A stretch of DNA of 44,211 nt from positions 1-44,211 of IMG/VR virus record IMGVR_UViG_2917413769_000009; one strand, written 5' to 3'. The translations under genes and the position numbers were made by a program. Under the pieces are notes generated by a model. It did not search any database, was not told where the DNA came from, and saw only the letters and a list, made by a program, of their open reading frames with translations. Origin of the DNA: a virus. Lineage: Duplodnaviria > Heunggongvirae > Uroviricota > Caudoviricetes. Each line of letters begins with the position of its first letter. Position 1 is the first letter of the stretch. Shown here piece after piece: positions 12,813 to 39,568 of this stretch.

Positions 12813-15800
12813 TCAGGCACTGCATAATCCTCCGTCCCGACGTGATGACTGCATAATTGACACAACCCTGCTGTCGATCAGATCCACCAGCCCCCTGGCT
12901 GACTGCGTATCTATCTCGCCATTGCTCCCTTTATTCTGAATACTGATGTGATACACGGGAGAATAAACAAATCCCCCGCCACCATTCACATTGCCAATGG
13001 CTCTGACTCCAAGAGAGCCGTCCGCTGCCCGGGTCAGTGGCATGATAGCTTCAGGCCCGGCCTCGCCCATCAGCCCGGCACCTTTCGCAAAAGCAAAATA
13101 CGTCGGGGTATCCACAATGGTGTTACTGTAAGCACTCAAATTTGCCGATGTATAAACACCACCTTTTGCGTTTGCCACTGCACCGGAAAGCCAGTCGCCG
13201 ACTGTACCAAGCCATCCTCCGGCACCGGACATGCTTTTGGAAAGTGACTTCAGCCCGTTAACGATGGCAGCGTTCATCAGAATTTTTGAAACTTCCTGGA
13301 GAATTGAACTCCCCCAGTTTCGCCAGTCCACAACATTTCCGGCCAGTGCATCGGAAATATTTGATACCAGCCCGTCCATAGTGGAAACGACAGCATCTGC
13401 CGCCTGCGAAGCATAATCGGTGGCACTGTCTGCCCAGTTCGTCAGTCCCTCCTGGAGGCCGGCATTCCAGTCACTGCGTAAAGCATCAGCCTTTGCATAA
13501 TAATCCTGCTGATCGCTGAGACGCTCTTCCAGATATTTTTCATTCAGCGATTTTTCCTGTTTCCACAGGGCTTCTTCAATTTCTCCGGCCTGATACTGTC
13601 TCAGTAGCTCGTTATTTTTCTGCTCAAACGCCTGCCGGATACTCCACATTTCCTGGAGTCGTTCACGCATCCGTGAGCCTTCACCATATCCCAGCAACTG
13701 CGCGTCGTCAGATGCCCGGGCACTGGCATTACTGTCCGCCAGACTGCTTTCATACGCGGCAAGCTGCTCACGAATCTTTTTCTGGTCGATGAGTGCCGCA
13801 TTCTGTAAAAGCGTTTTTTTTCTGCGCTTCTGACAGGGTTGATAATTCGCCCTGACTGACCTGATATTTCATCTTAGCCAGTTCAGTATTCTGCCCTGCC
13901 AGTGCTATCTGTTCTTTTTGCTGTTTAATCAGCCGTTTATAAATATCTTCTGTTTTTTCCGCTTCGGTCTTTTTATGCGTTTTGGGTTTATTTGCCTGGT
14001 TATTTCGCCAGGCATCCAGTGAGTTATTGATATAATTCTGTCTGGCTGTCTGATACGCCTCTCCCACAAAGCCGAGATCATCCGCAGCATAGCCCAGTCG
14101 GGCACGCTCACGCGCTTCCCCCTTAAGGCGGGACAGAGCCAGTTCGCGCTTGCTGTTATTCAGTGCGGTCTGCTGTTTATCATCCAGGGTTGCCTGTGGT
14201 AGCCGTAACGGTACATTCACCAGCCCCTGTCGCTGCTGAAGTAATTCATTACCAAGCCCAAGAAGGCGATTAAACTCGGTATGCTGCCCATTCATGATCA
14301 ACAGGGACTGATACGCTTTGTTTTGTTCCGCCGCCTGTTGACGGATCAACGCCACCCGTCGCTCCTCCAGCCCGGCAAGCACATCCTGAATAGATTGCGC
14401 TTTGCCCTGCATTTGAGTGAGACGGGATTGTTCAACTGCCAGTTGATTTGTTGCTTCGGCAAGCCCTTTAAGGATGATTTCAGCACCCGAACCACTCTGC
14501 GAACTTTCATCAAGCCAACGTTGATAATCAGCAATTTGATTTTTCAGTCCGCGAATTTTTCCTTCCTGTTCGCTAATCAGGCGATTTTGTTCCTCCAGTG
14601 CCTGCCGCGTCTTTTCCTCATTATCTGACGCTTCAGGAAGCGACATTGCCGACGTTTTCTGGCGAATTTCGTCGATTGTTGCGGCATACTGACGTGCAGA
14701 TTCTCTGGCCTGCTCCTGATTCTGATACATCGTGTACCAGGCCGCAGCCCCCAGCATGACAAGCCCCGGCACACCACCAACCAGCCCCAGTGCCCCTCTT
14801 AACAGACGACTCCCCACTGACGTGACAGTATTCAGCGTTGTCTGTGCTGCTGTTCTGGCCGCAATATTACGGGTAAGTGACGCCTGAGCAGCTGTCAGCT
14901 TCGCTTCTGCGGCTGCCTGCCTTTCAGTACCACGGGTAGCCGCAACCGCCTGTTGCGCACGATAAACCGCCGCACGCGCCCTGGCTGTTGCTATCTGTGT
15001 CCCCCGAAGTTGCGCTTCCGCAAGAGCCACTTCGTTTCTGGCTGCAGTAATTAATCCGGCAGTTGCAGATCCAGCAGAAGACGCCATATTGCCAAAATAT
15101 CGGGCTACCCCGACGGCAACCAGAGCACCGGCAGCGGTTGCCACAGTGTCAATATTGCCTGCAATACCATTCAGCACACCGGAGAGCGTCTTCGTCACTC
15201 CGCTTGCCTCGTTCGCACCACCAACCCAGGCCATAAAGGCGTTTTCAACTTTGGTTGCAGAGGATGAAACCGTATCAGGCATTGCCGCATATTCATCACG
15301 TAATGCCCCAAGCTGACTAACCAGTGCAGGAACAACCTTATCGGCGGTCAACTTTCCGTTATCCGCCATGGCCTTCAGATCCTTACGGGCAACCCCCATT
15401 CCCGCAGCCAGCGCACGAATAACACGATCGCCGTTCTCATTCACCGAGTTAAACTCTTCACCGCGTAGCACTCCCTGCGCCAGTGCCTGACTGAACTGCG
15501 TGATCACCGAACTGGCTTCTGCTGTACTGGCACCGGATAATTTCAGGCCCGTGGAGATCGCCTCGGTGACTTTCAGTACCTCCTCAGAACTGTAACCATA
15601 CTCCCGCATGGAAGCTGCAGAACGTGCAAAAAGGCTGGCGTTATCAGAAAACGCCGTCCCCGTTCTCTGGCTGATCGCCATTAATTCACGCTGTGATGCC
15701 TGAAAATCATCACTGGACTGTGAGGCCTGCTTCAGACGGGCATTTACTGAATTCCACTCATCGGCGAGAGAAATAAGATGACCGGTAGCAAAAGCCCCGG

Positions 15801-18965: not shown

Positions 18966-18976
18966 TTGGGCTACCT

Positions 18977-22486: not shown

Positions 22487-22497
22487 AATTACCTCAG

Positions 22498-24230
22498 TTA
22501 AAGCGAGCGGATCCCGTAGGACTCAATGTGGTCAGACAGCGTGTCTTCTTTCTCGTACAGCATGGCTCTGCCAACCGCCATAATCAGCGCAACTGCACCA
22601 TCGATTTTGTTTTCCGCCTGCTCTTTGACGGGCTTCACCACATCATCGTTACCCGGAATGGTTTTTCCGACCACGTTGCCGATACACCAGGTCATGATGG
22701 GATTGCCATCATGATGAAAGCGCCCCGATTCAATTGCCGCTTCCAGCTCTTTCATCGGGTCGGACATGTTGGTGTAGTTCTGAATGATGGTGACGGGGTT
22801 CAGGTCTTCATCAGCAAGGTCATGTGACAGCCCGGTCGCCCGAAGGGGTCGATGGGTGACTCGCTGACCGGGCTGATTTTGTTCGCCGCTTTGGCCTCTT
22901 CGAGGATGTAGCGATAATCCACCTCTGCACCATCGGTAACGGTCAGAACGCCCATTTCCACCCATTTCTGAAAGCGTTCGGCTGTCCGGCGATCTTCATT
23001 TTTCTCGACGCTATACACCGTGTCATACGGTACCCAGAAACGCGGGGCCACACTGTAGTAATGCGTTTTACCGTCAATCTCGCGGGTATAAAGTCGCGCC
23101 ATGCTGTTCATATCCAGCTTACGCGCCAGGTCAAAGGCCAGAATGCACGGCTGCCCCTCGAATTGCTCAAGAGTCAGTGATTTATCCTCGCAGCTCTGCC
23201 AGCTCACCAGGTTGAAATACGCCGAACGCGCCGACACCCAGATATTGAGGTGTTTTGTTTTAAAGACGTTTGCCAGACGGGCGTTATTTTTCGCACGCTG
23301 TTGCTGACTTAACAAAAACTCACGGTAAACCGACACCCCGATATTCGGGTTGGCTTTTTCCAGCACCTGTGGGTCGGTCCAGTCGTCACCTTCGTCAACG
23401 GTATAGATGATCCCGAACAGTTCATCGTTGGGTACCGAACCGTTGAGCATCTCGATAACTTCCCGCCGTTTGTCGTAGCACGGCCCCTCAATGTTGTACC
23501 CGGCGGTAGTGATAGCCCACATCAGTGGCTGACGTCGCGCCCCCATCCCGGTAATCATCGTGGTGTAAAGCGCATCTGTGGCGTGCTCGTGATATTCATC
23601 CACCACCGCACAGTGGGGTGATGAACCATCACCGGGGTTACCGATCAGCGGTTCAAACCGCGCCCCATCCTCCGGACGGTTCATGTTTGAGGCGTTAACC
23701 TCAATCCCGAACGCTTCCGTCAGCATTGGTGTGCGTTTACACATCAGTCGCGCCGGGCGAAAAACTTCCCACGCCTGTTTCTCTGTCGTGGCACCGGAAT
23801 ACACTTCCGCGCCAAACTCGTTATCACAGGCAAAACAATACAGGGCAACACCGGCAGAGATTGCCGATTTGCCGTTTTTACGGGGAATTTCGGTATACAC
23901 CTCCCGGAAGCGGCGCAACCGGGTGCCTTTATTGACCCAGCCAAACGCACAGCAGATCACAAATAGCTGCCACGGCTCCAGCGTGATGGGCATCCGTTTA
24001 AATGCCCACTCACCCTTGGTGTGCGGCAACAGCTGAATAAATTTGGCGGCCCGTTCAGCCAGGTCCTTGTCGAAGCGGTAACGAAACGACTTACTTTTTT
24101 CCGCCATCAGGTCATCAAGATGGCGCTGGCAGGCCTGAATCACAAACTGGCAGGCAACAATCTTTCCGCGCACGACATCCCGGGCATACTGATTTGCAGC
24201 ATTTACGTTGGGGTAAGATTTCCGGCTCAT
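22498..24230 (-). CDS. terminase large subunit; reading frame interrupted near the G4 run at 22845-22848
   Basis: N-terminal ATPase part is the 476-aa ORF 22800-24230, the C-terminal nuclease part continues in another frame to 22498 (...[22 protein letters not shown]...). Adding one G/C at the run gives a continuous ...[14 protein letters not shown]... Confidence 0.85.
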
Positions 24231-24730: not shown

Positions 24731-24764
24731 TCCTGGTTAAATTTCATTTTTCGCGGGTATAAAA

Positions 24765-24825: not shown

Positions 24826-24846
24826 TCAGACAGTTGAGAATTATTA

Positions 24847-26581: not shown

Positions 26582-27075
26582 TGTTGCCCCCACAAACAGA
26601 CCTCACGCTCAATCTCACGACGAGTCATCAGGCCTTTCCATTGCTTACCGCCAGCGTATGTCCAGCGACGTAGCTGGTCACATGCGCCCTTGATATCGCC
26701 CTGGTTTATTTTGCGAAGAAGAGTAGATGTTCTGAAATTGCCTGCGCCCACGTTATAGACGAACGAGTAAAGAGCGCCGCGCGTTGTTTCCGGTATATCG
26801 ACTTTGATGTACGGGTTAATTTGTCTGGCGACAGTGGCAAGGTCTTTATTCAGGAGGGCTTTGCATTCTGCTTCGGTATACGTTTTACCGAGCATAATGT
26901 CTTTTCCGGTGTGCCCGTAACATACAGTCCATACACCAACGATATCTTTATATGGTATGTAGCTGACGCCTTCCAGACCATCGTTACCACTTGGGCCAGT
27001 GATTAACACAGATGCTATAGCAATAGCCCCGCCACCAATAGCCGCAGCAACGGCTTTTCGTAATGATGGAGGCAT
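26578..27075 (-). CDS. R: SAR endolysin (phage-21 R21-type lysozyme)
   Basis: 165 aa; N-terminal Gly/Ala-rich weakly hydrophobic signal-anchor-release segment [20 protein letters not shown] followed by a lysozyme-like domain. Confidence 0.9.
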
Positions 27076-27290
27076 TATTCACCTCTCGCAGCCTTTCTTC
27101 TGTCTTCTCTGATTTTGAAGTACAGATTTGTCAGATAGGTGAGAAAGCCCAACACAAGGCTTCCAAGCACTCCAATCGCAGCCCACTGTGATGGACTGAC
27201 CTGATCCAACCACTGCAAAAACCAGTATCCCGCACTACCAGCGGATGTTCCGTAGGCAATGCCAGTTGAGATTTTGTCCATTGATTTCAT
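27075..27290 (-). CDS. S: pinholin (phage-21 S21-type) with dual-start motif
   Basis: 71 aa, [71 protein letters not shown], which I recognise as the S21 holin/antiholin sequence. Confidence 0.9.
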
Positions 27291-27560
27291 AGCAACGCCT
27301 CCGCAAGTAACGGATTGCGTAGTTCTTATATTGGGAAGGGAGGAAAGAAGGCCGCAGCGTAACTATCACTGATGAGTTCAGGATAGCCAGTGGCTACGGC
27401 TCAGTTTGGGTTGTGCTGTTACTGGGCGGCGATGACGCCTGTACGCATTTGGTGATCCGGTTCTGCTTCCGGCATTCGCTTAATTCAGCACAACGGAAAG
27501 AGCACTCAATGCATTTAAACCAAGCCCCATAAAGGAGAATGCTCTTACCTGTTGCACAGA

Positions 27561-27622
27561 TATAAAAAATCCCGAAACCGTTATGCAGGCTCTAACTATT
27601 ACCTGCGAACTGTTTCGGGATT
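27561..27622 (-). terminator. tR' late terminator
   Basis: Minus-strand hairpin AAUCCCGAAACAG...ACGGUUUCGGGAUUUUUUAU, near-identical to lambda tR' as recalled. Confidence 0.75.
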
Positions 27623-27756
27623 GCATTTTGCAGACCTCTCAGCCTGCGATGGTTGGAGTTCCAGACGATACGTCGAAGTGACCAACTAGGCGGAATCGGT
27701 AGTAAGCGCCGCCTCTTTTTATCTCACTACCACAACGAGCGAATTAACCCATCGTT
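27563..27756 (-). ncRNA. 6S RNA (short PR' transcript including qut), about 194 nt
   Basis: Distance from the predicted PR' start to tR' is about 194 nt and the sequence is lambda-like (ACGAUGGGUUAAUUCGCUCGUUGUGGUAGUGAGAU...). Confidence 0.55.
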
Positions 27757-27762
27757 GGGTCA

Positions 27763-27791
27763 AATTTACCCAACTTTATTCAAAAAGTCAA
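27763..27791 (-). promoter_or_regulatory. late promoter PR' (-35 TTGACT, -10 TAAATT, 17-bp spacer) with adjacent qut
   Basis: Minus-strand TTGACTTTTTGAATAAAGTTGGGTAAATT downstream of Q, closely resembling lambda PR'. Confidence 0.75.
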
Positions 27792-27833
27792 TATCATGCC
27801 GTTAATATGTTGCTATCCGTGGCAATCATGCTG

Positions 27834-28457
27834 CTAACGTGTGACCGCATTCAAAATGTTGTCTGCGATTGACTCTTCTTTGTGGCATTGCACCACCAGA
27901 GCGTCATACAGCGGCTTAACAGTGCGTGACCAGGTGGGTTGAGTAAGGTTTGGGATTAGCATCGTTACAGCGCGATATGCGGCGCTTGCTGGCATTCTTG
28001 AATAGCCGACACCTTTGCATCTTCCGCACTCTTTCTCAACAACTCTCCCCCACTGCTCTGTTTTGGCTATATCAACCGCACGGCCTGTACCGTGGCAATC
28101 TCTGCATCTTGCGCCCGGCGTCGCGGCACTACGGCAATAATCCGCATAAGCGAATGTTGCGAGCACTTGCAGTACCTTTGCCTTAGTATTTCCTTCAAGC
28201 TTTGCCACACCACGGTATTTCCCCGATACCTTGTGTGCAAATTGCATCAGATAGTTGATAGCCTTTTGTTTGTCGTTCTGGCTGAGTTCATGCTTACCGC
28301 AGAATGCAGCCATTCCGAATCCGGCTTGTGATTGCGCCATCCCCATAGCAGCCATCACATCAGTACCGGAAAGAGAGTCAGAAGCCGTAGCCCGTGGTGA
28401 GTCGCTCATCATCGGGCTTTTTGGCGAATGAAATTTAGCTACGCTTTCGAGTCTCAT
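27834..28457 (-). CDS. Q: late antiterminator Q (lambda type)
   Basis: 207 aa, [60 protein letters not shown]..., essentially lambda Q as recalled. Confidence 0.95.
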
Positions 28458-29119
28458 GCGCCTTCTCCCTGTACCTGAATCAATGTGAGATTTCCGCAGA
28501 ACACTGCCCCAGTATCGATATACATCTGGTTGGCAAATTTGAGTGGTTTCACTGCTGGCGTATGACCAAAGATAAACGTGTCCGCGCCTTTAATTTCTTT
28601 CACGATCCCGTCTTGTGAGTTGCTGATTCGTTCGCGGTTCCAGATTACCTGCTGATGATCAACTGGCTTTCCGAACTCGTATTCATCACAAGGATAATCG
28701 GCGTGGCAGATGACATATTTTTTATCTTTGCTCACCAGTTCGATGATTAACGGAAGTTCTTCTGCTTTATGGGCAAGAGCTTTAGCCAGAATTTCTTTGT
28801 CGTAATCGAGATTAAAGAACCAGCCACCGCCATTAAGCAGCCAGTGATTGACGTTTCCACGCTCTGATAAGCCATCAATCATCATGTGCTCATGGTTTCC
28901 ACGTACAGCTCTGAACCAGGGGAATGTGATTAATTCCAGGCATTCAACGTTCTCTGCACCACGATCAACCAAATCGCCAACCGAGATAAGCAGGTCTTTT
29001 TTGGTGTCGAATCCAATCGTATCCAGTTTGTTCATCAGGTTCGTGTAGCATCCGTGCAGGTCGCCAGCTACCCAAATATTTCGGTATTTGCTGCCATCAA
29101 TTCTTTCGTAGATATTCAT
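28454..29119 (-). CDS. ninI: NinI serine/threonine protein phosphatase
   Basis: 221 aa with metallophosphatase motifs GDLHG, GDLVDRG, GNHE. Confidence 0.92.
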
Positions 29120-29727
29120 GCTGCCTCACTTCTGCTGTTTCGCAGATTTTTAAGTTTCTGCTGATACTCCGCCTTGATGGCCCTGCACTCTTCGACAGTC
29201 CAGCGATGGCGGTTATGGTTTGATTCGATTTCGTCTACTGCTTCCTGCCCGATGCGATTAATCAGTTCGACGCGATACGGAACGAGATTTCCGCTTTTGT
29301 GCTGGTTGCACACCACGCATTGCTTGTGAATATTGCGTTCATCAAATCGGAGTTGAGGTGCCGCAGCAGTTGTCCGGTAATGTCCGGCATCCCACTGAGC
29401 AGACGTGAGCGTTCCGCACGAGATACATGGTAAGTCGCGGTCTCTTTCTCTGATGAAGGCGTTTACGGCTTGTTGGGCTTGTTTAATCCAGTAACTGCGG
29501 GGCTTTAAGGCGAGTTTTCGAATCTTAAGTTTATCTTTCTGTTTCTGCTCCTCTCGTCGTCGTTTCTTCTCTGCTGCTTTTTCCGCTTTTTCGCGTTCTT
29601 TGCTTCGTCGTTCGAGTGCTATCTTTGTTCCACACTCTGGAGAGCACCACCACTGATTAGCGAATGCAGGGTGAAACCATTTCCGACATTCATCGTTTTT
29701 ACATCGTCTTCGCGCTGGTTTAGCCAT
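29116..29727 (-). CDS. ninG: NinG (Rap recombination endonuclease)
   Basis: 203 aa with Cys clusters and basic coiled stretch; [33 protein letters not shown]... as in lambda NinG. Confidence 0.9.
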
Positions 29728-29896
29728 CGTCTTCTTCCTCGTACATTGAGCTATTCGGATCGCTCATCAGTTCTGCGCAGCAGTGCTCACACACGTGAAC
29801 TTCAAGCACATGCAGCTTCTGACCGCAGTTAGCGCACGTTAAAGCCCGCTCGACGCTTTCTTTCTGGTATTGAAGGGATTGGGATGGGCTAAGCAT
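29720..29896 (-). CDS. ninF: NinF
   Basis: Hand translation [58 protein letters not shown] (58 aa), lambda NinF-like; overlaps the ninG start. Confidence 0.8.
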
Positions 29897-30261
29897 TATT
29901 GGATTCTCTGCATCATGAGAAAGACAATCATGGCGGCGCGGAGGGGATTTTCATGTATAGCTCGCTTAGATTTACAGTAGGCCACACCGCGTGCACCCCA
30001 CTCGTCTTCATCGAGATTGATAATGCTAATCCTGTATTTTTCAATAATCGGCCATGCGTCTGCTGGGTTTACGCATGGGTTAAATGATCCGCGCTCAACT
30101 TCTACTTCAACTGCGTCTCCGTTTACAATGTCTCCCTCAAATGAGACAAACACCATATCGCCATTCTCACCTTCTTTGTAATCCGGTGATCCGTTATGAA
30201 TGGATTCGAATACCGCCACGTTAATTTCAAAATCACTTAACTGTGAATAATCCATTGTCAT
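29896..30261 (-). CDS. hypothetical nin-region protein (121 aa) inserted between ninE and ninF
   Basis: ORF ATGA-coupled on both sides (start overlaps ninE stop, stop overlaps ninF start); acidic, no recognised motif. Confidence 0.6.
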
Positions 30262-30434
30262 TTCCTCGCGCGTTCTCTAAGCCACCGGATATCCCACAGG
30301 TGAGCCGTGTAATTGAAGGTTTTTACGTCAGATTCTTTTGGGATTGGCTTGCGTTTATTTCTGGAGCGTTTCGTTGGAAGGTATTTGCAGTTTTCGCAGA
30401 TTATGTCGGTGATACTTCGTCGCTGTCTCGCCAC
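30258..30434 (-). CDS. ninE: NinE (GTG start)
   Basis: Hand translation (M)[66 protein letters not shown] 4 nt upstream of GTG 30432-30434; lambda NinE-like. Confidence 0.6.
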
Positions 30435-30574
30435 ACGTCCTCCTTTTCCTGCGGTAGTGGTAACACCCCTGTTGGTGTTCTTTCACACCGGAGACACCAT
30501 CGATTCCAGTAAGGTTGATTTGGTCGGAAGCGGTTATCGTCTTTGCATTCACCGCACCGATAACATCGCATCAT
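30401..30574 (-). CDS. ninD: NinD
   Basis: Start at [31 protein letters not shown]... (57 aa, zinc-ribbon-like Cys pairs); ATGA-coupled to ninC. Confidence 0.75.
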
Positions 30575-31443
30575 GCAGCTTCCCTCCCGAAGTCGAAATA
30601 AAGCTGCCCTCCAAATATTTCGCATGACTCAGAACAAGAGCCGGTATCGAATCTTTTAGCTCGTACCATGTCCTGATACAGGGCTTGATAATCATTTTCT
30701 GAATACATTTTCGCGATACCATCCAGCGACATTCTTCCTCGGTACATAATCTCCTTTGGTGTTTCCCGATGTCCGTCACGCACATGCGATCCCGTGATGA
30801 CCTCATTAAAAACACGCTGCAATCCCTCCTCATCTTTGCAGGCAAGTCCGATTTTTTGCGTTGATTTTTTAATGCAGAATATGCAGTTACCGAGATGTTC
30901 CGGTATTTGCAAATCGAATGGTTGTTGCTTCCACCATGCGAGGATATCTTCCTTCTCAAAGTCTGACAGTTCAGCAAGATATCTGATTCCAGGCTTTGGC
31001 TTTAGCCGCTTCGGTTCATCAGCTCTGATTCCAATCCACGTGGTGTAATTCCCTCGCCCGAAATGGTCATCACAGTATTTGGTGAAGGGAACGAGTTTTA
31101 ATCTGTCAGTGCAGAACGCGCCGCCGACGTATGGAGTGCCATATTTCTTTACCATATCGATAAATGGCTTCAGAACAGGCATTTTCGTCTGAATATCCTT
31201 TGGTTCCCATACCGTATAACCATTTGGCTGTCCAGGCTCTGGATTGATATCAACCTGCAATACGGTGAGCGGTATATCCCAGAACTTCACAACTTCCCTG
31301 ACAAACCGATATGTCATTGGATGTTCACAACCTGTATCCATGAAAACGTAATGCACGTCTTCACCTGCCTGTCGCTTTTGCTCCATTAGCCAGAGCAAAT
31401 ATGCTGACGTCCTGCCACCGGAGAAACTAACGACATTTATCAT
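30571..31443 (-). CDS. ninC: NinC (PAPS reductase-like)
   Basis: 290 aa from [24 protein letters not shown]...; the SGGxxS PP-loop motif; lambda NinC-like. Confidence 0.9.
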
Positions 31444-31880
31444 GCAGCCCTGTCTCCCCATCTTGCTTTCCACTCCAGAGCCAGTCGCGCTTCGTCTGAC
31501 CACTTAACGCCACGCTCTGTACCAAATGCCTGTATAAGCTCTAATAGCTCCGCAAATTCGCTTACACGCATCCTGCTGGTTGACTGGCCTATTACCACAA
31601 AGCCATTCCCGGCAAGGTTAGGAACAACGTCCTGCTGCTTTAATGCTGCTGTAAAAACGCACTTCCAGCTTTCTGTATCCAGCCAGCGACCATGCCATTC
31701 AACCTGACGCGAGACGTCACCAAGGCAAGCCCAAAGTTTCCGATTTTGGTCTAAGCTGCGGTTACGTTCCTGAATGGTTACTACGATTGGTTTGGTTGGG
31801 TCTGGAAGGATTTGCTGTACTGCGTGAATAGCGTTTTGCTGATGTGCTGGAGATCGAATTTCAAAGGTCAGTTTTTTCAT
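31440..31880 (-). CDS. ninB: NinB (recombination mediator)
   Basis: 146 aa from MKKLTFEIRSPAHQQNAIHAVQQILPDPTKPIVVTIQERNRSLDQNRKLWACLGDVSRQVEWHG..., near-identical to lambda NinB as recalled. Confidence 0.9.
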   Translation of the reverse strand: MKKLTFEIRSPAHQQNAIHAVQQILPDPTKPIVVTIQERNRSLDQNRKLWACLGDVSRQVEWHGRWLDTESWKCVFTAALKQQDVVPNLAGNGFVVIGQSTSRMRVSEFAELLELIQAFGTERGVKWSDEARLALEWKARWGDRAA

Positions 31881-31896
31881 GACTTCCCTCTCCCCC

Positions 31897-31928
31897 AAAT
31901 AAAAAGGCCTGCGATTACCAGCAGGCCT
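31897..31928 (-). terminator. tR2-like rho-independent terminator between the replication and nin genes
   Basis: Minus-strand AGGCCUGC-UGGUAAUC-GCAGGCCU followed by UUUUAUUU. Confidence 0.55.
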
Positions 31929-31953
31929 GTTATTAGCTCAGTGATGTAGATGG

Positions 31954-33330
31954 TCATACGTCAGCCCCTTGTGCATATCGTCTGCCACGTGCAGCAGGTG
32001 CATTTGATGCTGTGCAAATCTGTCTGGCTTCATCCTGGTCACATGCAACAAAGTGTCCGTTGCAGAACCGCTGGTAAACCGTACCAAGTGAGCCAAAACG
32101 GTTTTTCGTCACGATGATTTCAGCAAATGGCGCGGCGCTACTGTTCTCGTCATATACTGCTTCCCGATAGAGCATGATGATTGAGTCTGCGTCCTGTTCA
32201 ATGCTTCCTGAATCACGCAAATCTGCGTTTGTCGGGCGTTTGTTTGGTCGCTTCTCAACATCGCGCGAAAGCTGACTCAGGGAGATAACAGGCGTTTTCA
32301 GGTCTTTCGCCATCGCCTTAAGGCTTCCTGAGATGTGAGCAATTGCGAGGTCGTTGCGGTCTGCTTTCGGCTTCTCAATCAGGCCAAGATAATCCACCAT
32401 GATTAGTGACAGGTTTGGATTTTCCTGTTTGTGCCGTTCTGCGATTGAGCGTATTTCTTCGACCGATAACCGCGAGGCATCGACCACCCATACATCCAAA
32501 TCTGCAAGCTGACTCATGCCGTTAGCAACGCGCGCCCAGCCTTCGTCATCCATCGATGCAGGATTTCGCAGCACGCTAACCGACATCCTCCCGGCGTTGG
32601 CGATGCTTCGCTCTGCAATCTGCAATGCGCTCATTTCCATCGAGAAAATCAACACTCCGCGCCGGACGTCAGAACCAGGAATAACGCGGCTTGCAACGCC
32701 TTCGGCAATCTTCAGCGCCAGTTCGGTTTTCCCCATACCAGGACGAGCAGCGATTATCACCAGGTCTTCTGCGTTCATCCCTCCGGTGATGGCATCAAGT
32801 TCTTCGATTCCGGTCTTCAGGGTATCTGACTCTTCTCCGTTCCTCAGACGCCTGTCAAGCGTGTCAGTGTAGTCAGTGATGATTTCCCCTAACCGCACCG
32901 GTTTAACCTCGTCACGGGGCTTTCTGATGGCTGAAAGACGCTTTACAAGTTCATCCATCGCCTGACTCGATGCGTCGATGGTTCCGCTCTGAATTGGTTC
33001 ACGCATTTCATCCATGATTTCCAGCACCAGACGGCGGTGATAGTTATCCGCGACCATTCCGGCATATCCCTTCAGGTTTGCGGCACTCGGGCAGTTTTTG
33101 CTGGTCATCAGGATTGACGTGAAATGCTCCTCTCCGCATTCCTCAGCAACCATCAGCGCGTCGATTAGGTTTCTGTTTCTCGCCTGCTTGCGGATAACCT
33201 CGAAGGCTTTCCGGTAGAGCGGAATTGAAAACGCTTCCGGCTCAAGCGTTGCCAGAACGTCACTGGCGGTTGGAGTTAATCCACCAATCAGCAGGCCACC
33301 GATAACGCTCGCTTCGATATCCTGTCTCAT
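31954..33330 (-). CDS. DnaB-family replicative helicase
   Basis: 458 aa with Walker A GMGKT, Walker B IMVDYLG and the C-terminal RecA-like core; in the position of lambda P. Confidence 0.92.
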
Positions 33331-34148
33331 GCAATCCCCCTGTCTGCAAACTTCCCTTCCCGAACTCCCGTTAACGAGTCTTCCCTCAACAGGTAATCAA
33401 AATCAGCCGTCCAGCCCGTGTCGTTGTCTCCGAAGTAAAACGGCTTGGCCTGATGCACAAACGCCCTGACATACGCTCTGAAACCGTCTACGTTTGGCGT
33501 TTTCAGTTGTGGGATGATTTTCTTCAGGCGGCGTTTTCGTTTCTCGTTGACCGCAACAGCGTGTGGAAGTCTGTCACCGACTTCGGTGTTGTAGGCGTTC
33601 AGGAAGGATTCGTAGTCGATTCGTTCTGCCTTGCGACGTTCAGGTTTAACCTGCCCATCGCCGCCCCCGTTAGGGGGTAAGGGGGTATTTGTATTTATTG
33701 TCTTTTGTATATTGTCTTTTGTGTTTAGCTGACTTGGCTTATACCCATTAGCCGACTCGGCTAATGTTTTATTAGCTGTTTTAGCTAATGTTAAGCTGTC
33801 CTGGCTAATCCACTGAGAAACCACCTTGTTCACTCCTATTTTCACGCCATCAGCAATGAGGAATTTACGCTCAATAAGCTGGCGCTTGGCAGCGCAAACA
33901 TGAGTGTGATGAATACCTGTCATGGCTGCTATCTGCGTATTTGTGAGTCGATCCATCGGCTTATTGAATCCGTATGTCTTGCGCATGATAGCGAGCATCA
34001 CCTTCAACTGCCGGACGGTTAAATCAGCCATCAGCAGACTGTCGGTAATCTCGTTAGCAACGCGCATGAAACCATCTTCGGTATCTGCCACGCGATGCTC
34101 CACGACCTCCAGTTGAGGCCTGTAATCAGCTAACTTAACGACGCCCAT
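33327..34148 (-). CDS. O: replication initiator (O-like)
   Basis: 273 aa with ori iterons inside the coding sequence and a proline/glycine linker ([10 protein letters not shown]); ATGA-coupled to the helicase gene. Confidence 0.88.
33685..33808. other. origin of replication: four iterons (consensus TTAGCYGAYTYGGCTAA) followed by an AT-rich tract, inside O
   Basis: Iterons at 33725-33741, 33748-33764, 33772-33788, 33791-33808, each an inverted repeat; AT-rich tract 33685-33724; same architecture as lambda ori. Confidence 0.65.
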
Positions 34149-34296
34149 GTTTCACTCCTGCTTTGGCTAGTCTGTAAACACCAACAAGGCGCTCTGCGAA
34201 CGCCCTGTTATTTGCTGCGGCTACCACTAATCCCTCAGGTGAATCAGGGTGTCGAATCTCTTCTTTTTCCTGGTATTTCTTACGACGTTTTGTCAT
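34135..34296 (-). CDS. small basic ORF (53 aa) between cII and O
   Basis: [53 protein letters not shown] with SD AGGAG 5 nt upstream; its stop overlaps the O start. Confidence 0.35.
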   Translation of the reverse strand: MTKRRKKYQEKEEIRHPDSPEGLVVAAANNRAFAERLVGVYRLAKAGVKHGRR

Positions 34297-34328
34297 AATT
34301 ACTCCTGTGGATTGATCCAGTAATTCCC

Positions 34329-34625
34329 TCAGAATTTCATATCAATTTGCTTAGAGTCCCCGGCGGCCACCGGGGATTTTTTCTTTGTGATTCCATCAAG
34401 CGCATACTTAAAAGCCCTGCTAATCGGACTGATGTCTGATGCCATTCCGAAAGCACACAAGACCGAAGCAATAAATCTCCAGTCCGTTCTGCTTATCTTC
34501 GATTCATGACAGCCAATCATCTTTGCCAGACCGCGCTGTGTAAGCGTTGACAGGTTGATGAGTAAATCTGTTTCTGCGCGATCAACGTCGCGCTGTGATA
34601 GTTTGCTGTAACTTGTTCGTTCCAT
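34329..34625 (-). CDS. cII: CII-family transcriptional activator
   Basis: 98 aa in the cro-cII-O position; HTH region and C-terminus ...TKKKSPVAAGDSKQIDMKF parallel lambda CII (...TNKKRPAATERSEQIQMEF). Confidence 0.85.
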   Translation of the reverse strand: MERTSYSKLSQRDVDRAETDLLINLSTLTQRGLAKMIGCHESKISRTDWRFIASVLCAFGMASDISPISRAFKYALDGITKKKSPVAAGDSKQIDMKF

Positions 34626-34710
34626 TTCTTAAGATTTCCAATAGTGAATAGTTAGTTGAAAGGTATGCGTTGAAACGCATATGGCCTTAGTTGGTCAGAT
34701 ATCTTGGGAC

Positions 34711-34756
34711 TCGCTTTTCAGCGACGTAGGACGAATGTCCGTTGTTACAAAGAGCG
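34711..34756 (-). promoter_or_regulatory. nutR (boxA CGCUCUUUGUAACAA plus boxB hairpin UCGCUGAAAAGCGA)
   Basis: Between cro and cII on the minus strand; the boxB-like hairpin shares the core ACGU(G/C)GCUGAAAAGC with the element downstream of PL. Confidence 0.5.
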
Positions 34757-34763
34757 GGGTTAC

Positions 34764-34973
<210 letters not shown>

Positions 34974-34984
34974 TTAGTACATAC

Positions 34985-35060
34985 AGTCATTATCACCGCC
35001 AGAGGTAAAAGAGTCAACATCTGCGGTGTTAGATATTTATCCCCTGCGGTGATAGATTTA
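34985..35060. promoter_or_regulatory. right operator region OR1-OR2-OR3 with divergent PR and PRM
   Basis: OR1 TATCACCGCCAGAGGTA (34991-35007), OR2 CAACATCTGCGGTGTTA (35015-35031), OR3 TATCCCCTGCGGTGATA (35038-35054); PR -35 TTGACT / -10 GATAAT on the minus strand; leaderless cI start. Confidence 0.9.
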
Positions 35061-35061
35061 A

Positions 35062-35778
<717 letters not shown>

Positions 35779-35864
35779 CACGAAATAAACGTCCGACAAG
35801 CACAGCAGCCAATACCTAAAAAAAATATTTTGCCGAATATTCAGTTCGTTATAAAGGTTAAGCA

Positions 35865-36443
35865 TTGAGTATACCAACTGTCTCTCTATGGAATGAGATG
35901 GGGTTAATCCCCCCAATAGACGAGGCTGATCCTACAAGCCATACTCGTTCCCCATACAAAATGGATATAGTACGCTTTGTTAGTACTTTTTCGCTTAGCC
36001 CTGCAAGGATTAAAATCCTTAAGGGTTTTCTTAATTTTCGTGTTTCACTCACTCAAGCAGGGCTGGTTGAAGGTTTTCAGTGGGTAGATGGAAGCTTCAC
36101 AGAACATATTGAACTTATTGAAAAAAGGCCACCGAATGATGTCGATGTTGTGACCTTTTTTCAATTCAGTAATGGCGATAATGATGCAATCGTAATCGGT
36201 AGAAAGCCAGAGCTATTTGATCATGATTTTGTTAAGAAGGAGTTTTTCGTAGATTCCTACTTCCAAGAACTTAATCTACCAAGTCATGAGCTTGTTGAAA
36301 TGACTGTATATTGGTACAGTATGTGGGCACATAGACGCGATCTGTCGTGGAAGGGATTTATCCAAATCCCGTTAAACCCACAACTTGATGTTGTGGCAAT
36401 GACTATACTTAATTCGGCTGCTACTGAGGGGGTCAAACAATGA
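35865..36443 (+). CDS. hypothetical protein A of the cI-linked two-gene cassette (rexA position); possible nucleotidyltransferase-like fold
   Basis: 192-aa ORF from a TTG start (AAGG 7 nt upstream), or 181 aa from the ATG at 35898. Not hydrophobic; motif GFQWVDGSF-x14-DVDVV. Confidence 0.7.
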   Translation: MSIPTVSLWNEMGLIPPIDEADPTSHTRSPYKMDIVRFVSTFSLSPARIKILKGFLNFRVSLTQAGLVEGFQWVDGSFTEHIELIEKRPPNDVDVVTFFQFSNGDNDAIVIGRKPELFDHDFVKKEFFVDSYFQELNLPSHELVEMTVYWYSMWAHRRDLSWKGFIQIPLNPQLDVVAMTILNSAATEGVKQ

Positions 36444-37309
36444 ATCGTAATGATTATGTTTTCGCTCTCAGTGAGCGCGAGCAAATAAGTAATCTATTAA
36501 AAAATATGCCAACAAGTCATTCTATTAGCCGAAAAAGCTTAGAAGACCGTCTGGAGAAAGTTGAGCGATTAATTTCACAAGCTGACGTTCGAGAACATGA
36601 ACCTACGCATGCTGTGTTAACTTTTAGAGGCCCAACAGTAGTTGGCACGCATGGCATTTCAGCAGTATTTGGAACAAAAGCTATATCTTGTTTTAATGAT
36701 GCAATAGCTTACTTGGCAACCTCTTTCAATGGCCCACTTCCTGCATCAGGCAAGATACCAAACATAGAAAATAATCATCTCATGATTACCGCGTCAGCCC
36801 GTGGTTCTTTCGGATTCGTACTTGAAGAGTTTAGACCTGATGCTCCTCTTGAATTCGATGAAGAAACCCCAGTAGCAAAAGCTATTAATAAGGCCAGAAA
36901 AATATTTCAGGCAAGCTTGGATAATGATGATGAAGAATTGTCTGATGCTATAGAAAACTTAGACTCTCGGGCCTTAGATAAAATCAGAGCGTTCATTCAT
37001 TATCTGCATGAAAATAAAACAGTTTTTACACTTAAAAGCCAAGGTTTTAGCATCGTTTTTAGAGAGCCAAAACAGCTTGAAGCTGTATATCAACATCTCA
37101 GCAATGATAATATTCAGCAGGAAAAAATTATTGAGAACGTTATATTTTTGGGAACTCTTCCTAACAAGCGCCAATGTGAATTTATAGTTTTAGGTAACAC
37201 TGATATCAGAACCGCTAGCATTGACAAAGCTGTAGATGACCCAGATATTATAAACAAGCACTTAGGAAGCGTTGCAACAGCCACGTTCCTGAAAAAAAAC
37301 TGTTGGTAA
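36440..37309 (+). CDS. hypothetical protein B of the cI-linked two-gene cassette (rexB position)
   Basis: 289-aa ORF, ATG overlaps the stop of gene A (ATGA), SD GAGGGGG; AT-rich; no TM segments; the only motif noted is R-x6-H (RAFIHYLH) in a helical stretch. Confidence 0.7.
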   Translation: MNRNDYVFALSEREQISNLLKNMPTSHSISRKSLEDRLEKVERLISQADVREHEPTHAVLTFRGPTVVGTHGISAVFGTKAISCFNDAIAYLATSFNGPLPASGKIPNIENNHLMITASARGSFGFVLEEFRPDAPLEFDEETPVAKAINKARKIFQASLDNDDEELSDAIENLDSRALDKIRAFIHYLHENKTVFTLKSQGFSIVFREPKQLEAVYQHLSNDNIQQEKIIENVIFLGTLPNKRQCEFIVLGNTDIRTASIDKAVDDPDIINKHLGSVATATFLKKNCW

Positions 37310-37385
37310 GGGCAAACCCAGATACACTCTGGTTTCTCGACCTCAATGGGATATTAAATCTATCGATTAGAATGAGCCCCTTCAA

Positions 37386-37412
37386 CCCGGCCTCCGCGCC
37401 GGGTTTTCTTTT
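37386..37412 (+). terminator. rho-independent terminator after the cI-linked cassette (t_imm-like)
   Basis: CCCGGC-CTCCGC-GCCGGG followed by TTTTCTTTT. Confidence 0.65.
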
Positions 37413-37560
37413 ACCATCACCCCGTCAAAAACACACCTAACGAATTGTATTTATTGAATAAATATAAATCACACTTATCACATTGCGCAATTCAGCTCCT
37501 ACACATCCAGACTAGCTCTGCAAAACTTTAAAAAATAAATCAATAGTAAAAACATGCACA

Positions 37561-37632
37561 TAACCATTTGCGGTAATATTTTATCTCTAGCGGTGTTGAC
37601 GAAAATACCTCCAGCGGTGATACTAAACACAT
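37561..37632 (+). promoter_or_regulatory. left operator OL1-3 and promoter PL
   Basis: OL3 TAACCATTTGCGGTAATA (37561-37578), OL2 TATCTCTAGCGGTGTTG (37582-37598), OL1 TACCTCCAGCGGTGATA (37606-37622); PL -35 TTGACG (37596-37601), -10 GATACT (37619-37624), 17-bp spacer; start region ATCAGCAGG as in lambda. Confidence 0.85.
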
Positions 37633-37670
37633 CAGCAGGACGCTGGAAGCCAAATGGAACAGACTGGCAG

Positions 37671-37715
37671 GCTCTTTAAACAACGTCGACTCTCGACTAC
37701 GTGGCTGAAAAGCCA
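37671..37715 (+). promoter_or_regulatory. nutL (boxA GCUCUUUAAACAA plus boxB hairpin UGGCUGAAAAGCCA)
   Basis: About 40-85 nt downstream of the PL start; the boxB-like hairpin shares its core with the nutR element. Confidence 0.5.
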
Positions 37716-37813
37716 GATCACCCAACCACATAAGCTGTGGGATGCAATGCCGAAGCAACCGTCTCAGGAGGAGCTTCGAGATTGCATCGCCAAAGTTTAT
37801 TCGGGAGGAATCT

Positions 37814-38086
37814 ATGTCCAGAAAAACAGAATTTAAAGGCACCGCAGCTTCTCGCCGTAGAGCACGTCGCGCAAATCTGCAAAGTCAGGAGGCGATCAGC
37901 TCCGACAAGCTACACAGGCCAACCCCTTCACGAGTGGTCTTGCAATGCAAGCGCAAACCAGCAATGAGAGCAGAAGTTATAACTCTGACAACGTTGACCA
38001 GAAAATATGAAGGTTCAACTTGTCTTCCGAACGTAGCTCTTTACGCGGCAGGCTACCGGAAATCAAAACAACTGACAGCGAGGTAA
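37814..38086 (+). CDS. N: N-like early antiterminator (arginine-rich motif)
   Basis: First gene of the PL operon; MSRKTEFKGTAASRRRARRANLQSQEAI... has an N-terminal arginine-rich motif like lambdoid N proteins; SD GGGAGG. Not lambda N itself. Confidence 0.7.
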   Translation: MSRKTEFKGTAASRRRARRANLQSQEAISSDKLHRPTPSRVVLQCKRKPAMRAEVITLTTLTRKYEGSTCLPNVALYAAGYRKSKQLTAR

Positions 38087-38144
38087 CCTGCACTGTTCGC
38101 CAGAAAATGAAATTAGGCAGCAAACCACTTATTTGAGGTGATAT

Positions 38145-38231
38145 ATGGAAGAAGAATTTGAAGAGTTCGAAGAGCATCCGCAGGATGTGATGGAACAATA
38201 CCAGGACTACCCTTATGACTACGACTATTGA
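38145..38231 (+). CDS. acidic 28-aa peptide (lambda orf28-like position)
   Basis: MEEEFEEFEEHPQDVMEQYQDYPYDYDY, overlapping the ral start in another frame. Confidence 0.45.
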   Translation: MEEEFEEFEEHPQDVMEQYQDYPYDYDY

Positions 38232-38415
38232 TAAGAATCAATGGTGTGGACAATTCAAGCGATGCAATGGATGCAAGCTGCAATCGGAATGCATGGTTAA
38301 GCCTGAAGAAATGTTTCCTGTAATGGAAGATGGGAAATATGTCGATAAATGAGCAATACGAACGACGGCAATGATTGCCAGAGAACTTGGTAAACAGAAC
38401 AACAAGGCTGCCTGA
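38215..38415 (+). pseudogene. ral: ral (restriction alleviation) interrupted by an in-frame TGA at 38350-38352
   Basis: MTTTIDKNQWCGQFKRCNGCKLQSECMVKPEEMFPVMEDGKYVDK-stop-AIRTTAMIARELGKQNNKAA; lambda Ral as recalled has Trp (TGG) at this codon and runs on to the same C-terminus. Confidence 0.6.
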
Positions 38416-38549
38416 TGGTGGCCTTTATTTTTGGCATAAACAACAGAATAAACACAGCACTGTGTATTCATTCCAACGAGTGAATACACGGAGCAATGTC
38501 GCTCGTAACTAAACAGGAGCCGACTTGTTCTGATTATTGGAAATCTTCT

Positions 38550-38580
38550 TTGCCCTCCAATGTGAGGGCGATTTTTTATC
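38550..38580 (+). terminator. rho-independent terminator within the PL operon (tL-like)
   Basis: GCCCTC-CAATGT-GAGGGC followed by GATTTTTTAT (stem 38552-38569, T-run 38572-38577). Confidence 0.55.
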
Positions 38581-38589
38581 TATGAGGAT

Positions 38590-38967
38590 ATGAATAGATG
38601 TCAAACATCAAAAAAATACATCATTGATTACGACTGGAAAGCATCAATAGAAATTGAAATCGACCATGACGTAATGACAGAGGAAAAACTTCACCAGATT
38701 AATAATTTCTGGTCAGACTCTGAATACCGACTCAATAAACACGGCGCTGTATTAAATGCTGTATTAATCATGCTGGCGCAACATGCTCTGCTTATAGCAA
38801 TTTCGAAAGACTTAAATGCATATGGTGTTGTTTGTGAGTTCGACTGGGATGATGGAAATGGTCAGGAAGGATGGCCTCCAATGGATGGTAGTGAAGGAAT
38901 AAGAATTACCGATATCGATACATCAGGAATATTTGATTCAGATGATATGACTATCAAAGCCGCCTGA
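38590..38967 (+). CDS. Ea10-like early protein; probable true start at the ATG at 38598, disrupted by an extra A in the A7 run
   Basis: The long ORF starts at an ATG with SD spacing of only 1 nt. The ATG at 38598 has good SD spacing but reads MSNIKKIHH-stop; with A6 instead of A7 (38610-38616) it would read MSNIKKYIIDYDWK... into the long ORF. Confidence 0.5.
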   Translation: MNRCQTSKKYIIDYDWKASIEIEIDHDVMTEEKLHQINNFWSDSEYRLNKHGAVLNAVLIMLAQHALLIAISKDLNAYGVVCEFDWDDGNGQEGWPPMDGSEGIRITDIDTSGIFDSDDMTIKAA

Positions 38968-39042
38968 GCGCGGCTTTACCGCATACCAACAATGCTTCAC
39001 GAGAGGCATTTTCGTTATGCAATCAAATATAAGGAGTTACCC

Positions 39043-39177
39043 ATGATGCACTTTCAGCTCGCGGGTAGCGGCGTCATGTCCGCTTTCTACCCGCACGAAT
39101 CTGAATTATCACGCCGAGTTAAACAATTAATCAGAGCAGCAAAGAAACAACTGGAGGCGTTATGCGCAATGAAATAG
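39043..39177 (+). CDS. cIII: CIII-like protease inhibitor
   Basis: Start at MMHFQLAGSGVMSAFYPHESELSRRVKQLIRAAKKQLEALCAMK (SD AAGGAG); amphipathic helix pattern and position resemble lambda CIII. Confidence 0.6.
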   Translation: MMHFQLAGSGVMSAFYPHESELSRRVKQLIRAAKKQLEALCAMK

Positions 39178-39314
39178 CCATTAATCACCAGATGCTTCGT
39201 GCTGCACAGAACAAGGCAGTAATAGCCCGATTTATTGGTGATTCAAAAATGTGGCTTGAAGCAAATAAAGCGATGAAATCAGCTATCAACCTTCCGTGGT
39301 ATCGCAGGAAATGA
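39162..39314 (+). CDS. kil: Kil-like small protein
   Basis: Hand translation MRNEIAINHQMLRAAQNKAVIARFIGDSKMWLEANKAMKSAINLPWYRRK (50 aa), SD GGAGG; position after cIII as in lambda. Confidence 0.45.
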   Translation: MRNEIAINHQMLRAAQNKAVIARFIGDSKMWLEANKAMKSAINLPWYRRK

Positions 39315-39469
39315 GTTTTACAGATAACTGGTCAGACGAAGAATTCATTCGTCAGATGAAAGAATTAATCGGTAACGAAGGAGATATTCATGTCACTTGC
39401 AACCACAGTGAAGGAGAGCAAGTTACAGAGACGCATGTACACGCAGAAAGCTCTCTGGTATCGCCATAA
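39311..39469 (+). CDS. small hypothetical ORF (52 aa) coupled to kil
   Basis: ATG overlaps the kil stop (ATGA); MSFTDNWSDEEFIRQMKELIGNEGDIHVTCNHSEGEQVTETHVHAESSLVSP. Confidence 0.3.
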   Translation: MSFTDNWSDEEFIRQMKELIGNEGDIHVTCNHSEGEQVTETHVHAESSLVSP

Positions 39470-39568
39470 TGGCGACCGCGAAGGAATGCGGGTATGCCTT
39501 AATTTGTCCCGAGTCGAAGTATTAAATCAGCGTTATTTCATTGGGCCATGTCCATTCTGAGGTGAATT

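What the first reader, a model, noticed from the sequence alone, without database searches (positions are those of the whole stretch)
38590..38625. Third homopolymer-associated frame break (ea10-like gene), suggesting a systematic pattern
The ATG at 38598 has ideal SD spacing but reads MSNIKKIHH-stop, and the long ORF continues in the other frame right after the A7 run (38610-38616). With A6 the gene would read MSNIKKYIIDYDWK... continuously. Together with the tape measure A8 and terminase G4 sites, three genes are broken exactly at homopolymers. That pattern is more typical of sequencing chemistry than of selection, and it affects how intact this prophage should be judged.
Basis: partly seen in the sequence, partly recalled or inferred. 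Interest (0 to 1): 0.4.

Follow-up and report, generated by a model that had tools for sequence, protein, structure and literature searches.

The report
Ion Torrent homopolymer miscall in ea10
The apparent frame break at the start of the lambda-type ea10 gene is one of six one-base homopolymer miscalls in an Ion Torrent-only draft genome; a second assembly of the same strain has the normal run lengths, so the prophage is intact and the finding is an artefact.

Summary
The window has A7 at 38610-38616, the well-placed ATG at 38598 reads MSNIKKIHH-stop, and the long ORF continues in the +1 frame. The window is contig PDIL01000009.1 of Escherichia sp. E1130, a draft sequenced only on Ion Torrent (PMC6639607). 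A second assembly of the same strain (GCA_005781065.1) matches about 33.9 kb of the window with 0 substitutions and exactly 6 one-base homopolymer differences. In that assembly all five affected genes are intact. The miscall rate rises with run length: 2 of 34 A/T6 runs and 3 of 8 A/T7 runs. A6 is found at 1,704 places in complete E. coli genomes and A7 at none. Two corrections: the long ORF is not headless, because the extra A brings an upstream ATG (38590) into frame and NCBI annotated a chimeric 125-aa protein from it; and the terminase run in the window is G3, not G4. One loose end: A7 also occurs on a different haplotype in run ERR4567687, whose platform I could not determine. Interest is low.

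The parts
38610..38616 (+). A7 homopolymer, true length A6. The extra A is the artefact that shifts ea10 out of frame with its real start codon.
   Evidence: A6 in 123/123 related loci. A7 absent from viral contigs, genome contigs and 5,426 complete E. coli genomes, against 1,704 places for A6. A6 in the second assembly of the same strain.
38598..38627 (+). Genuine ea10 start codon (ATG 38598), followed in this assembly by a 9-codon ORF, MSNIKKIHH-stop.
   Evidence: This ATG is the annotated start in phage 21, mEpX2 and E. coli 1223.
38584..38588 (+). Shine-Dalgarno GAGGA, 9 nt upstream of ATG 38598 and only 1 nt upstream of ATG 38590.
   Evidence: Annotated as the ribosome binding site in phage 21.
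38590..38967 (+). 125-aa ORF annotated as DUF2528 (WP_135494002.1). Its N-terminus is chimeric: MNRCQTSKK replaces MSNIKK. The real gene is 38598-38967 minus one A, 122 aa, Ea10/DUF2528.
   Evidence: PF10800, 156 bits. The 122-aa version is in L262.
13814..13821 (-). A8 on the minus strand, true length A7. Splits the 1,070-aa tape measure gene (12813-16026).
   Evidence: A7 in 20/20 viral contigs. A7 and an intact 1,070-aa protein in the second E1130 assembly.
22839..22841 (-). G3 on the minus strand, true length G4. Splits the 577-aa terminase large subunit gene (22498-24230).
   Evidence: G4 in 110/110 loci. G4 and an intact 577-aa protein in the second E1130 assembly.
37292..37299 (+). A8, true length A7. 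Truncates a 309-aa hypothetical protein to the 289-aa ORF 36440-37309.
   Evidence: The 309-aa form is on 603 contigs and the 289-aa form only in E1130.
42090..42096 (+). T7, true length T6. Lies in the spacer between AAGGAG and the real ATG (42097) of the invasin-domain gene; non-coding.
42144..42151 (+). A8, true length A7. Cuts the first 19 codons off a 233-aa Invasin_D4-domain protein, leaving the 214-aa ORF 42155-42799.
   Evidence: The 233-aa form is common; the 214-aa and 197-aa forms occur only in 'unclassified Escherichia' assemblies, including E1130's 392,540-bp contig.

Best explanation
The extra A at 38610-38616 is a homopolymer overcall in the consensus of an Ion Torrent-only draft assembly of Escherichia sp. 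E1130 (GCA_004745435.1). In flow-based sequencing the length of a run is read from signal amplitude, so long runs are often miscalled by one base. Where the bias is systematic the error survives into a 50x consensus. Strain E1130 really carries A6 and a normal 122-aa ea10 (DUF2528) gene starting at ATG 38598. The same process produced five more one-base errors in this window: tape measure, terminase, a 309-aa gene, an invasin-domain gene and one spacer. The prophage is therefore intact in every gene that could be compared. The 125-aa protein annotated from the upstream ATG is an annotation by-product of the error. Shown: the platform, the run lengths in the second assembly, the absence of substitutions, and the dependence on run length. 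Inferred: that the error lies in the reads and consensus rather than in the DNA, since raw reads were not seen.
For: (1) Window 28590-44211 is 100% identical to PDIL01000009.1 of GCA_004745435.1, which is Escherichia sp. E1130. PMC6639607 states the strain was sequenced on Ion Torrent, single-end 35-400 bp reads, 50x, MIRA and SPAdes. (2) GCA_005781065.1 is also Escherichia sp. E1130, TaxID 2041645. Its contigs match window 9961-26604 and 26915-44211 with 0 mismatches and 6 one-base gaps, all in homopolymers. The flanking integrase and host DNA also match with 0 mismatches. (3) In that assembly the tape measure is 1,070 aa, the terminase 577 aa, Ea10 122 aa, and the two other genes 309 and 233 aa. 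(4) Run-length dependence: 0 of about 1,060 A/T runs of 3-5, 2 of 34 A/T6, 3 of 8 A/T7, 1 of 111 G/C4. (5) The window alleles are population singletons: A7 at 0 places against 1,704 for A6 in complete E. coli genomes and A6 in 123/123 loci; tape measure A7 in 20/20; terminase G4 in 110/110. (6) The ea10 coding sequence downstream of the run is identical to that of A6-bearing mEpX2. (7) A Logan assembly of SRR6148301, presumably the Ion Torrent run, differs from the GenBank assembly by another one-base indel at 31139, which shows indel ambiguity in that data. (8) Truncated 214-aa and 197-aa forms of the invasin-domain protein recur in several other 'unclassified Escherichia' assemblies. I take these to be sister assemblies of the same project, from their accession series. 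(9) High rates of homopolymer indel errors on this platform are documented (abstracts of PMC3446914 and PMC3623719).
Against: Raw reads were not inspected. The platform of the second E1130 assembly is not documented in any paper I could find. The truncated tape measure product is reproduced by a read-based Logan assembly of SRR6148301, so that error, if it is one, is in the reads and not the assembler. This fits a systematic chemistry bias but would also fit a real variant in that DNA preparation. The same A7 allele occurs in an unrelated run, ERR4567687, on a different haplotype, so A6-to-A7 may also arise naturally.
Confidence: 0.95

Rival explanations
1. The frameshifts are real mutations and the E1130 prophage is decaying, with ea10, tape measure and terminase inactivated by replication slippage at homopolymers.
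For: Homopolymer slippage is a common natural route to pseudogenes (general knowledge). The tape measure A8 is reproduced in a read-based assembly of SRR6148301.
Against: A second assembly of the same strain has the canonical length at all six sites and no substitutions over about 33.9 kb. There are no nonsense mutations, deletions or IS insertions anywhere in the compared region. Five of the six changes are +1 in A/T runs of 6-7, a one-sided, length-dependent pattern. The platform is Ion Torrent.
Confidence: 0.02
2. The two E1130 assemblies come from sub-cultures that really differ, for example a mismatch-repair-deficient subclone that accumulated homopolymer indels.
For: Mismatch-repair defects strongly favour homopolymer indels (general knowledge). 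Two separate sequencing runs exist.
Against: Six indels and no transitions in about 34 kb would imply hundreds of indels genome-wide without base substitutions, which mutators do not produce. Truncated forms produced at the same A7/A8 site (42144) recur in other 'unclassified Escherichia' assemblies, apparently sister strains of the same project. That points to chemistry and not to one clone.
Confidence: 0.01
3. The A7 run is functional. Either it is a recoding site (+1 ribosomal or transcriptional slippage on A AAA AAA restoring MSNIKK-YIIDYDWK), or it is a switch that moves ea10 to the upstream ATG at 38590, as in a phase-variable contingency locus.
For: tRNA-Lys can re-pair perfectly after a +1 shift on the A7 run. 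An in-frame ATG exists 8 nt upstream. The identical 125-aa product occurs in an unrelated prophage in ERR4567687.
Against: No run-length polymorphism in the population: 1,704 A6 against 0 A7 in complete genomes and 123/123 A6. The strain itself has A6 in its second assembly. ATG 38590 lies only 1 nt after the Shine-Dalgarno sequence.
Confidence: 0.01

Closest known systems
Homopolymer-length indel errors of flow-based sequencing (Ion Torrent PGM, 454) carried into draft bacterial assemblies
   Same: The platform is documented. Differences from an independent assembly are exclusively +/-1 in homopolymers. The miscall rate rises steeply with run length. The errors create apparent frameshifts in otherwise conserved genes, and truncated forms from the same A7/A8 site recur in other 'unclassified Escherichia' assemblies, apparently of the same project.
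   Different: Nothing substantive. Per-read evidence was not available to me.
Phage lambda ea10 (Ea10, DUF2528/PF10800; annotated as 'ssDNA binding protein' in phage 21 and as ssb in several Stx phages) in the pL early-left operon
   Same: The repaired gene is a full-length 122-aa DUF2528 protein (156 bits). It is about 97.5% identical in DNA to ea10 of lambda-type phages, with the same SD and start, the same upstream terminator hairpin and the same neighbours (N, ral upstream; cIII, kil downstream).
   Different: In this assembly only, one extra A after codon 4 displaces the frame and the annotated protein starts at a spurious upstream ATG.
Programmed -1 frameshifting in tail assembly chaperones (lambda G/GT type)
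   Same: It also depends on an A-rich homopolymer. A genuine example lies in this window at 16377-16386 (A AAA AAG before the stop of the G-like ORF, with the T-like ORF in the -1 frame).
   Different: That site has the same length in both E1130 assemblies and joins two conserved ORFs. The ea10, tape measure and terminase sites are not conserved as two-frame arrangements in any relative.

Membership tests
Flow-chemistry homopolymer miscall (assembly artefact) | Source data come from a platform that infers run length from signal amplitude | tested here: met
   PMC6639607: E1130 (PDIL00000000) sequenced on Ion Torrent, single-end 35-400 bp, 50x. The window is identical to that contig.
Flow-chemistry homopolymer miscall (assembly artefact) | Independent sequencing or assembly of the same strain differs only by +/-1 in homopolymers, with no substitutions | tested here: met
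   GCA_005781065.1 (same strain): about 33.9 kb, 0 mismatches, 6 one-base homopolymer gaps.
Flow-chemistry homopolymer miscall (assembly artefact) | Miscall probability rises with run length | tested here: met
   0 of about 1,060 A/T runs of 3-5; 2 of 34 A/T6; 3 of 8 A/T7. 0 of 3 A/T8 is a small sample.
Flow-chemistry homopolymer miscall (assembly artefact) | Individual reads disagree on run length at the site, often with strand bias | not testable with these tools
   No access to raw reads. Indirect evidence only: a Logan assembly of SRR6148301 disagrees with GenBank by a 1-base indel at 31139.
Ea10 / DUF2528 (PF10800) | Full-length match to the Pfam model above the gathering score | tested here: met
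   156 bits against a cut-off of 22, model positions 1-104 of 104, for both the 125-aa and 122-aa versions.
Ea10 / DUF2528 (PF10800) | Position in the pL operon between N/ral and cIII/kil | tested here: met
   Gene order in L127 and L259: N, Ral, DUF2528, CIII, Kil.
True frameshift pseudogene in a decaying prophage | The lesion is reproducible in independent sequencing of the same strain | tested here: not met
   The second E1130 assembly has A6 and an intact 122-aa gene.
Phase-variable homopolymer (contingency locus) | Run-length polymorphism among closely related copies in the population | tested here: not met
   A6 at 1,704 places and A7 at 0 in 5,426 complete genomes. A6 in 123/123 sampled loci. 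One A7 in ERR4567687.
Programmed ribosomal frameshift / transcriptional slippage site | The two-frame arrangement and slippery run are conserved across relatives | tested here: not met
   All relatives have a single continuous ORF with A6.

The most novel reading that the evidence does not exclude
The A7 allele seen in run ERR4567687 is a genuine natural variant. It sits on a different prophage backbone and a different ea10 haplotype, and the one other 851-bp stretch I checked shows no indel error. If real, replication slippage at the A6 tract occasionally moves ea10 from its canonical start to the ATG 8 nt upstream, or leaves expression dependent on +1 slippage on A AAA AAA. This would be a rare natural start-switching polymorphism in a lambdoid early gene. 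It says nothing about the window itself, where the A7 is an artefact.
Probability: 0.15. Interest if true: 0.2.

Novelty: not a real feature. Interest (0 to 1): 0.06.

Why it matters
The practical consequence is about how to judge this sequence. The E1130 prophage should be scored as intact: terminase, tape measure, ea10 and two accessory genes are all whole in the second assembly of the strain. The first assembly, and by extension the other Ion Torrent-only clade II drafts from the same study, should not be used for pseudogene or gene-decay analyses without correction. At about 18 indels per 100 kb here, extrapolation would suggest several hundred false frameshifts per genome. The artefacts have also seeded spurious protein entries in public databases: WP_135494002.1 (125 aa), WP_240782905.1 (289 aa) and WP_135383335.1 (214 aa). 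There is no new biology.

Tried and rejected
(1) Searching both halves of the window against complete E. coli genomes for a near-identical relative gave only mosaic matches of 94-96%, too divergent for a clean indel census. The BLAST indel list against these was mostly paired alignment artefacts. (2) A flank-anchored homopolymer survey against about 125 loci missed the tape measure site because of SNPs in the flanks, but it revealed the sites at 37292 and 37530. The 37530 difference (A6 against A7 in one IMG/VR locus) is not an error, since the second E1130 assembly agrees with the window there. (3) I tried to find the Logan contig of the Ion Torrent run covering the terminase and ea10 sites. 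The 476-aa and 155-aa terminase fragments are not on record, the exact J protein is only in the GenBank assembly, and the N protein is too common for the run to be listed. The state of those two sites in the read-based assembly is therefore unknown. (4) The platform of ERR4567687 could not be found: no paper mentions it, L128 has no near-identical relative among complete genomes or my loci, and a suspected split gene in L128 proved indel-free against complete genomes. (5) The platform of the second E1130 assembly: the group's follow-up paper covers only PacBio sequencing of three other strains. (6) Shared descent of the A7 alleles in the window and L128 was rejected. The window's coding sequence is identical to A6-bearing alleles and differs from L128 at 3-4 synonymous sites.

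Full report
**Observation.**
- GAGGA lies at 38584-38588.
- ATG at 38598 reads ATG TCA AAC ATC AAA AAA ATA CAT CAT TGA, which is MSNIKKIHH-stop.
- The A run at 38610-38616 is seven long, and the long ORF continues in the +1 frame to 38967.
- Aligned with E. coli 1223, phage mEpX2 and phage 21, the window has exactly one extra A in this run. All three relatives read MSNIKKYIIDYDWK... from the same ATG, which is their annotated start.

Two details need correcting.
- The extra A brings a second ATG at 38590 into frame. The mechanical ORF is therefore 125 aa (MNRCQTSKKYIIDYDWK...), and NCBI annotated it as an intact DUF2528 protein, WP_135494002.1. That ATG sits only 1 nt after the Shine-Dalgarno sequence.
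- The terminase break is a one-base deletion: G3 on the minus strand, where relatives have G4. The tape measure break is at A8 on the minus strand, window T8 13814-13821.

**What the gene is.** The repaired protein is a full-length member of PF10800/DUF2528 (156 bits). The DNA is about 97.5% identical to ea10 of lambda-type phages. The gene lies between N/ral and cIII/kil in the early-left operon, behind a terminator hairpin that is annotated in phage 21.

**Population comparison.**
- The exact A7 28-mer is absent from the viral contigs and from the species-representative genomes.
- A 39-nt query, built so that any megablast seed must span the run, found nothing in 5,426 complete E. coli genomes with A7. 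The A6 control found 1,704 places in 1,440 genomes.
- The tape measure run is A7 in 20 of 20 viral contigs, and the terminase run is G4 in 110 of 110 loci.

All three window alleles are therefore singletons.

**Source and platform.** An exact-sequence look-up of the 125-aa product led to NCBI GCA_004745435.1, contig PDIL01000009.1, which is 100% identical to window 28590-44211. The organism is Escherichia sp. E1130. [quoted passage not shown] High rates of homopolymer indel errors on this platform are well documented (abstracts of PMC3446914 and PMC3623719).

**The same strain, assembled a second time.** Look-ups of neighbouring proteins returned contigs of GCA_005781065.1. Its proteins are also named Escherichia sp. 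E1130, TaxID 2041645.
- Contig VATL01000010.1 matches window 9961-26604 with 0 mismatches and 2 gaps: tape measure T8 vs T7 and terminase C3 vs C4.
- Contig VATL01000009.1 matches window 26915-44211 with 0 mismatches and 4 gaps. In each the window has one extra base in an A/T run: 37292 (A8 vs A7), 38610 (A7 vs A6), 42090 (T7 vs T6) and 42144 (A8 vs A7).
- The identity continues without a mismatch through the integrase into host DNA.

In the second assembly every affected gene is whole:

| Gene | Second assembly | Window |
|---|---|---|
| Tape measure | 1,070 aa | 752/754 + 294 aa fragments |
| Terminase large subunit | 577 aa | 476 + 155 aa fragments |
| Ea10 | 122 aa | 125 aa, chimeric N-terminus |
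| Hypothetical protein | 309 aa | 289 aa |
| Invasin_D4-domain protein | 233 aa | 214 aa |

Against the second assembly's run lengths, the window miscalls 0 of about 1,060 A/T runs of length 3-5, 2 of 34 of length 6, 3 of 8 of length 7, and 1 of 111 G/C runs of length 4. Six indels with no substitution in about 33.9 kb, five of them +1 in A/T runs of 6-7, is the signature of flow chemistry and not of mutation.

**Hints at read level.**
- A Logan assembly of SRR6148301, presumably the Ion Torrent run, reproduces the truncated tape measure. That error is therefore in the reads and not introduced by the assembler.
- Another contig of the same run differs from GenBank by a further one-base indel at 31139, which breaks the PAPS-reductase gene there. 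This shows indel ambiguity in that data.
- A Logan assembly of a different run, SRR8835199, matches 7.6 kb of the window with no mismatch and has A7 at 37292 and A6 at ea10.
- Truncated 214-aa and 197-aa forms of the invasin-domain protein recur in several other 'unclassified Escherichia' assemblies. From their accession series I take these to be sister genomes of the same project, which fits a systematic miscall at that run.

**A loose end.** The identical 125-aa product, with A7, also occurs on a 13-kb Logan contig of ERR4567687 (three samples), in a different prophage backbone.
- The window's ea10 coding sequence is identical to A6-bearing alleles and differs from that contig at 3-4 synonymous sites, so the two A7s are independent events.
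- I could not learn the platform of that run.
- The one stretch I could check against complete genomes is indel-free.

It may be a genuine rare allele or the same systematic miscall. Either way it does not affect the verdict for this window.

**Explanation and rivals.**
- **Best explanation:** a homopolymer overcall in an Ion Torrent consensus (confidence 0.95).
- **Real prophage decay:** contradicted by the second assembly, by the absence of any other kind of lesion, and by the one-sided, length-dependent pattern.
- **A mutator subclone:** this would also produce transitions, and it would not explain the same truncations in the other assemblies.
- **A recoding or phase-variable site:** not supported, because relatives show neither run-length polymorphism nor a conserved two-frame arrangement.
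- **For contrast:** the window holds a genuine homopolymer-based recoding site, A AAA AAG at 16377-16386, joining the G-like and T-like tail chaperone ORFs in the -1 frame. Its length is the same in both assemblies.

**Verdict.** The feature is not real biology, and the prophage should be judged intact.

**Limits.** Raw reads were not seen. The platform of the second assembly is undocumented. Window 1-9960 and 26605-26914 could not be compared with the second assembly.

Noticed in passing
window 16377-16386 (minus strand), ORFs 16375-16761 and 16073-16363: The tail assembly chaperone G-like ORF ends GTT AAA AAA AAG TAG, and the -1 frame continues KKVAIPGMRFL... into the T-like ORF. This is the canonical A AAA AAG slippery heptamer, so probably a genuine programmed -1 G/GT frameshift. 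The run length is identical in both E1130 assemblies.
   Followed up: partly
They truncate a 309-aa gene to 289 aa, lengthen an SD-ATG spacer, and cut 19 N-terminal codons from a 233-aa Invasin_D4-domain protein.
   Followed up: yes
L128 9863-9869 (Logan ERR4567687 contig 69): The same A7 allele and an identical 125-aa product occur in an unrelated lambdoid prophage on a different ea10 haplotype, reported for 3 samples. The platform is unknown, so this is either a genuine rare variant or the same systematic miscall.
   Followed up: partly
window 38590-38967, 36440-37309, 42155-42799: Public protein records derive from the artefacts: WP_135494002.1 (125 aa, chimeric N-terminus), WP_240782905.1 (289 aa) and WP_135383335.1 (214 aa, 'MULTISPECIES', on 5 contigs). 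A 197-aa form also occurs in other 'unclassified Escherichia' assemblies, apparently sister genomes of the same project.
   Followed up: partly
window 31139 / L263 (Logan SRR6148301 contig 389): The read-based assembly of the presumed Ion Torrent run lacks one C (C instead of CC) relative to both GenBank assemblies, which splits the PAPS-reductase-family gene there. Two assemblies of presumably the same reads disagree.
   Followed up: yes
window 35898-37309: A DUF6932 gene (181 aa) and the 309-aa hypothetical gene lie between the cI repressor and N, where E. coli 1223 carries rexA/rexB. This may be an exclusion or defence cassette.
   Followed up: no
window 37654-37836 and 37688: A 60-aa ORF overlaps the start of N. 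Eleven related loci have one more A near 37688, and in E. coli AVS0655 the corresponding CDS is annotated 'frameshifted'. The second E1130 assembly agrees with the window here, so this is natural variation and not an error.
   Followed up: no
window 1-1929 (minus strand) and right end 44211: The window starts inside host thrS and ends just before the prophage integrase. The prophage sits between thrS and yniD/ydiY/pfkB.
   Followed up: partly
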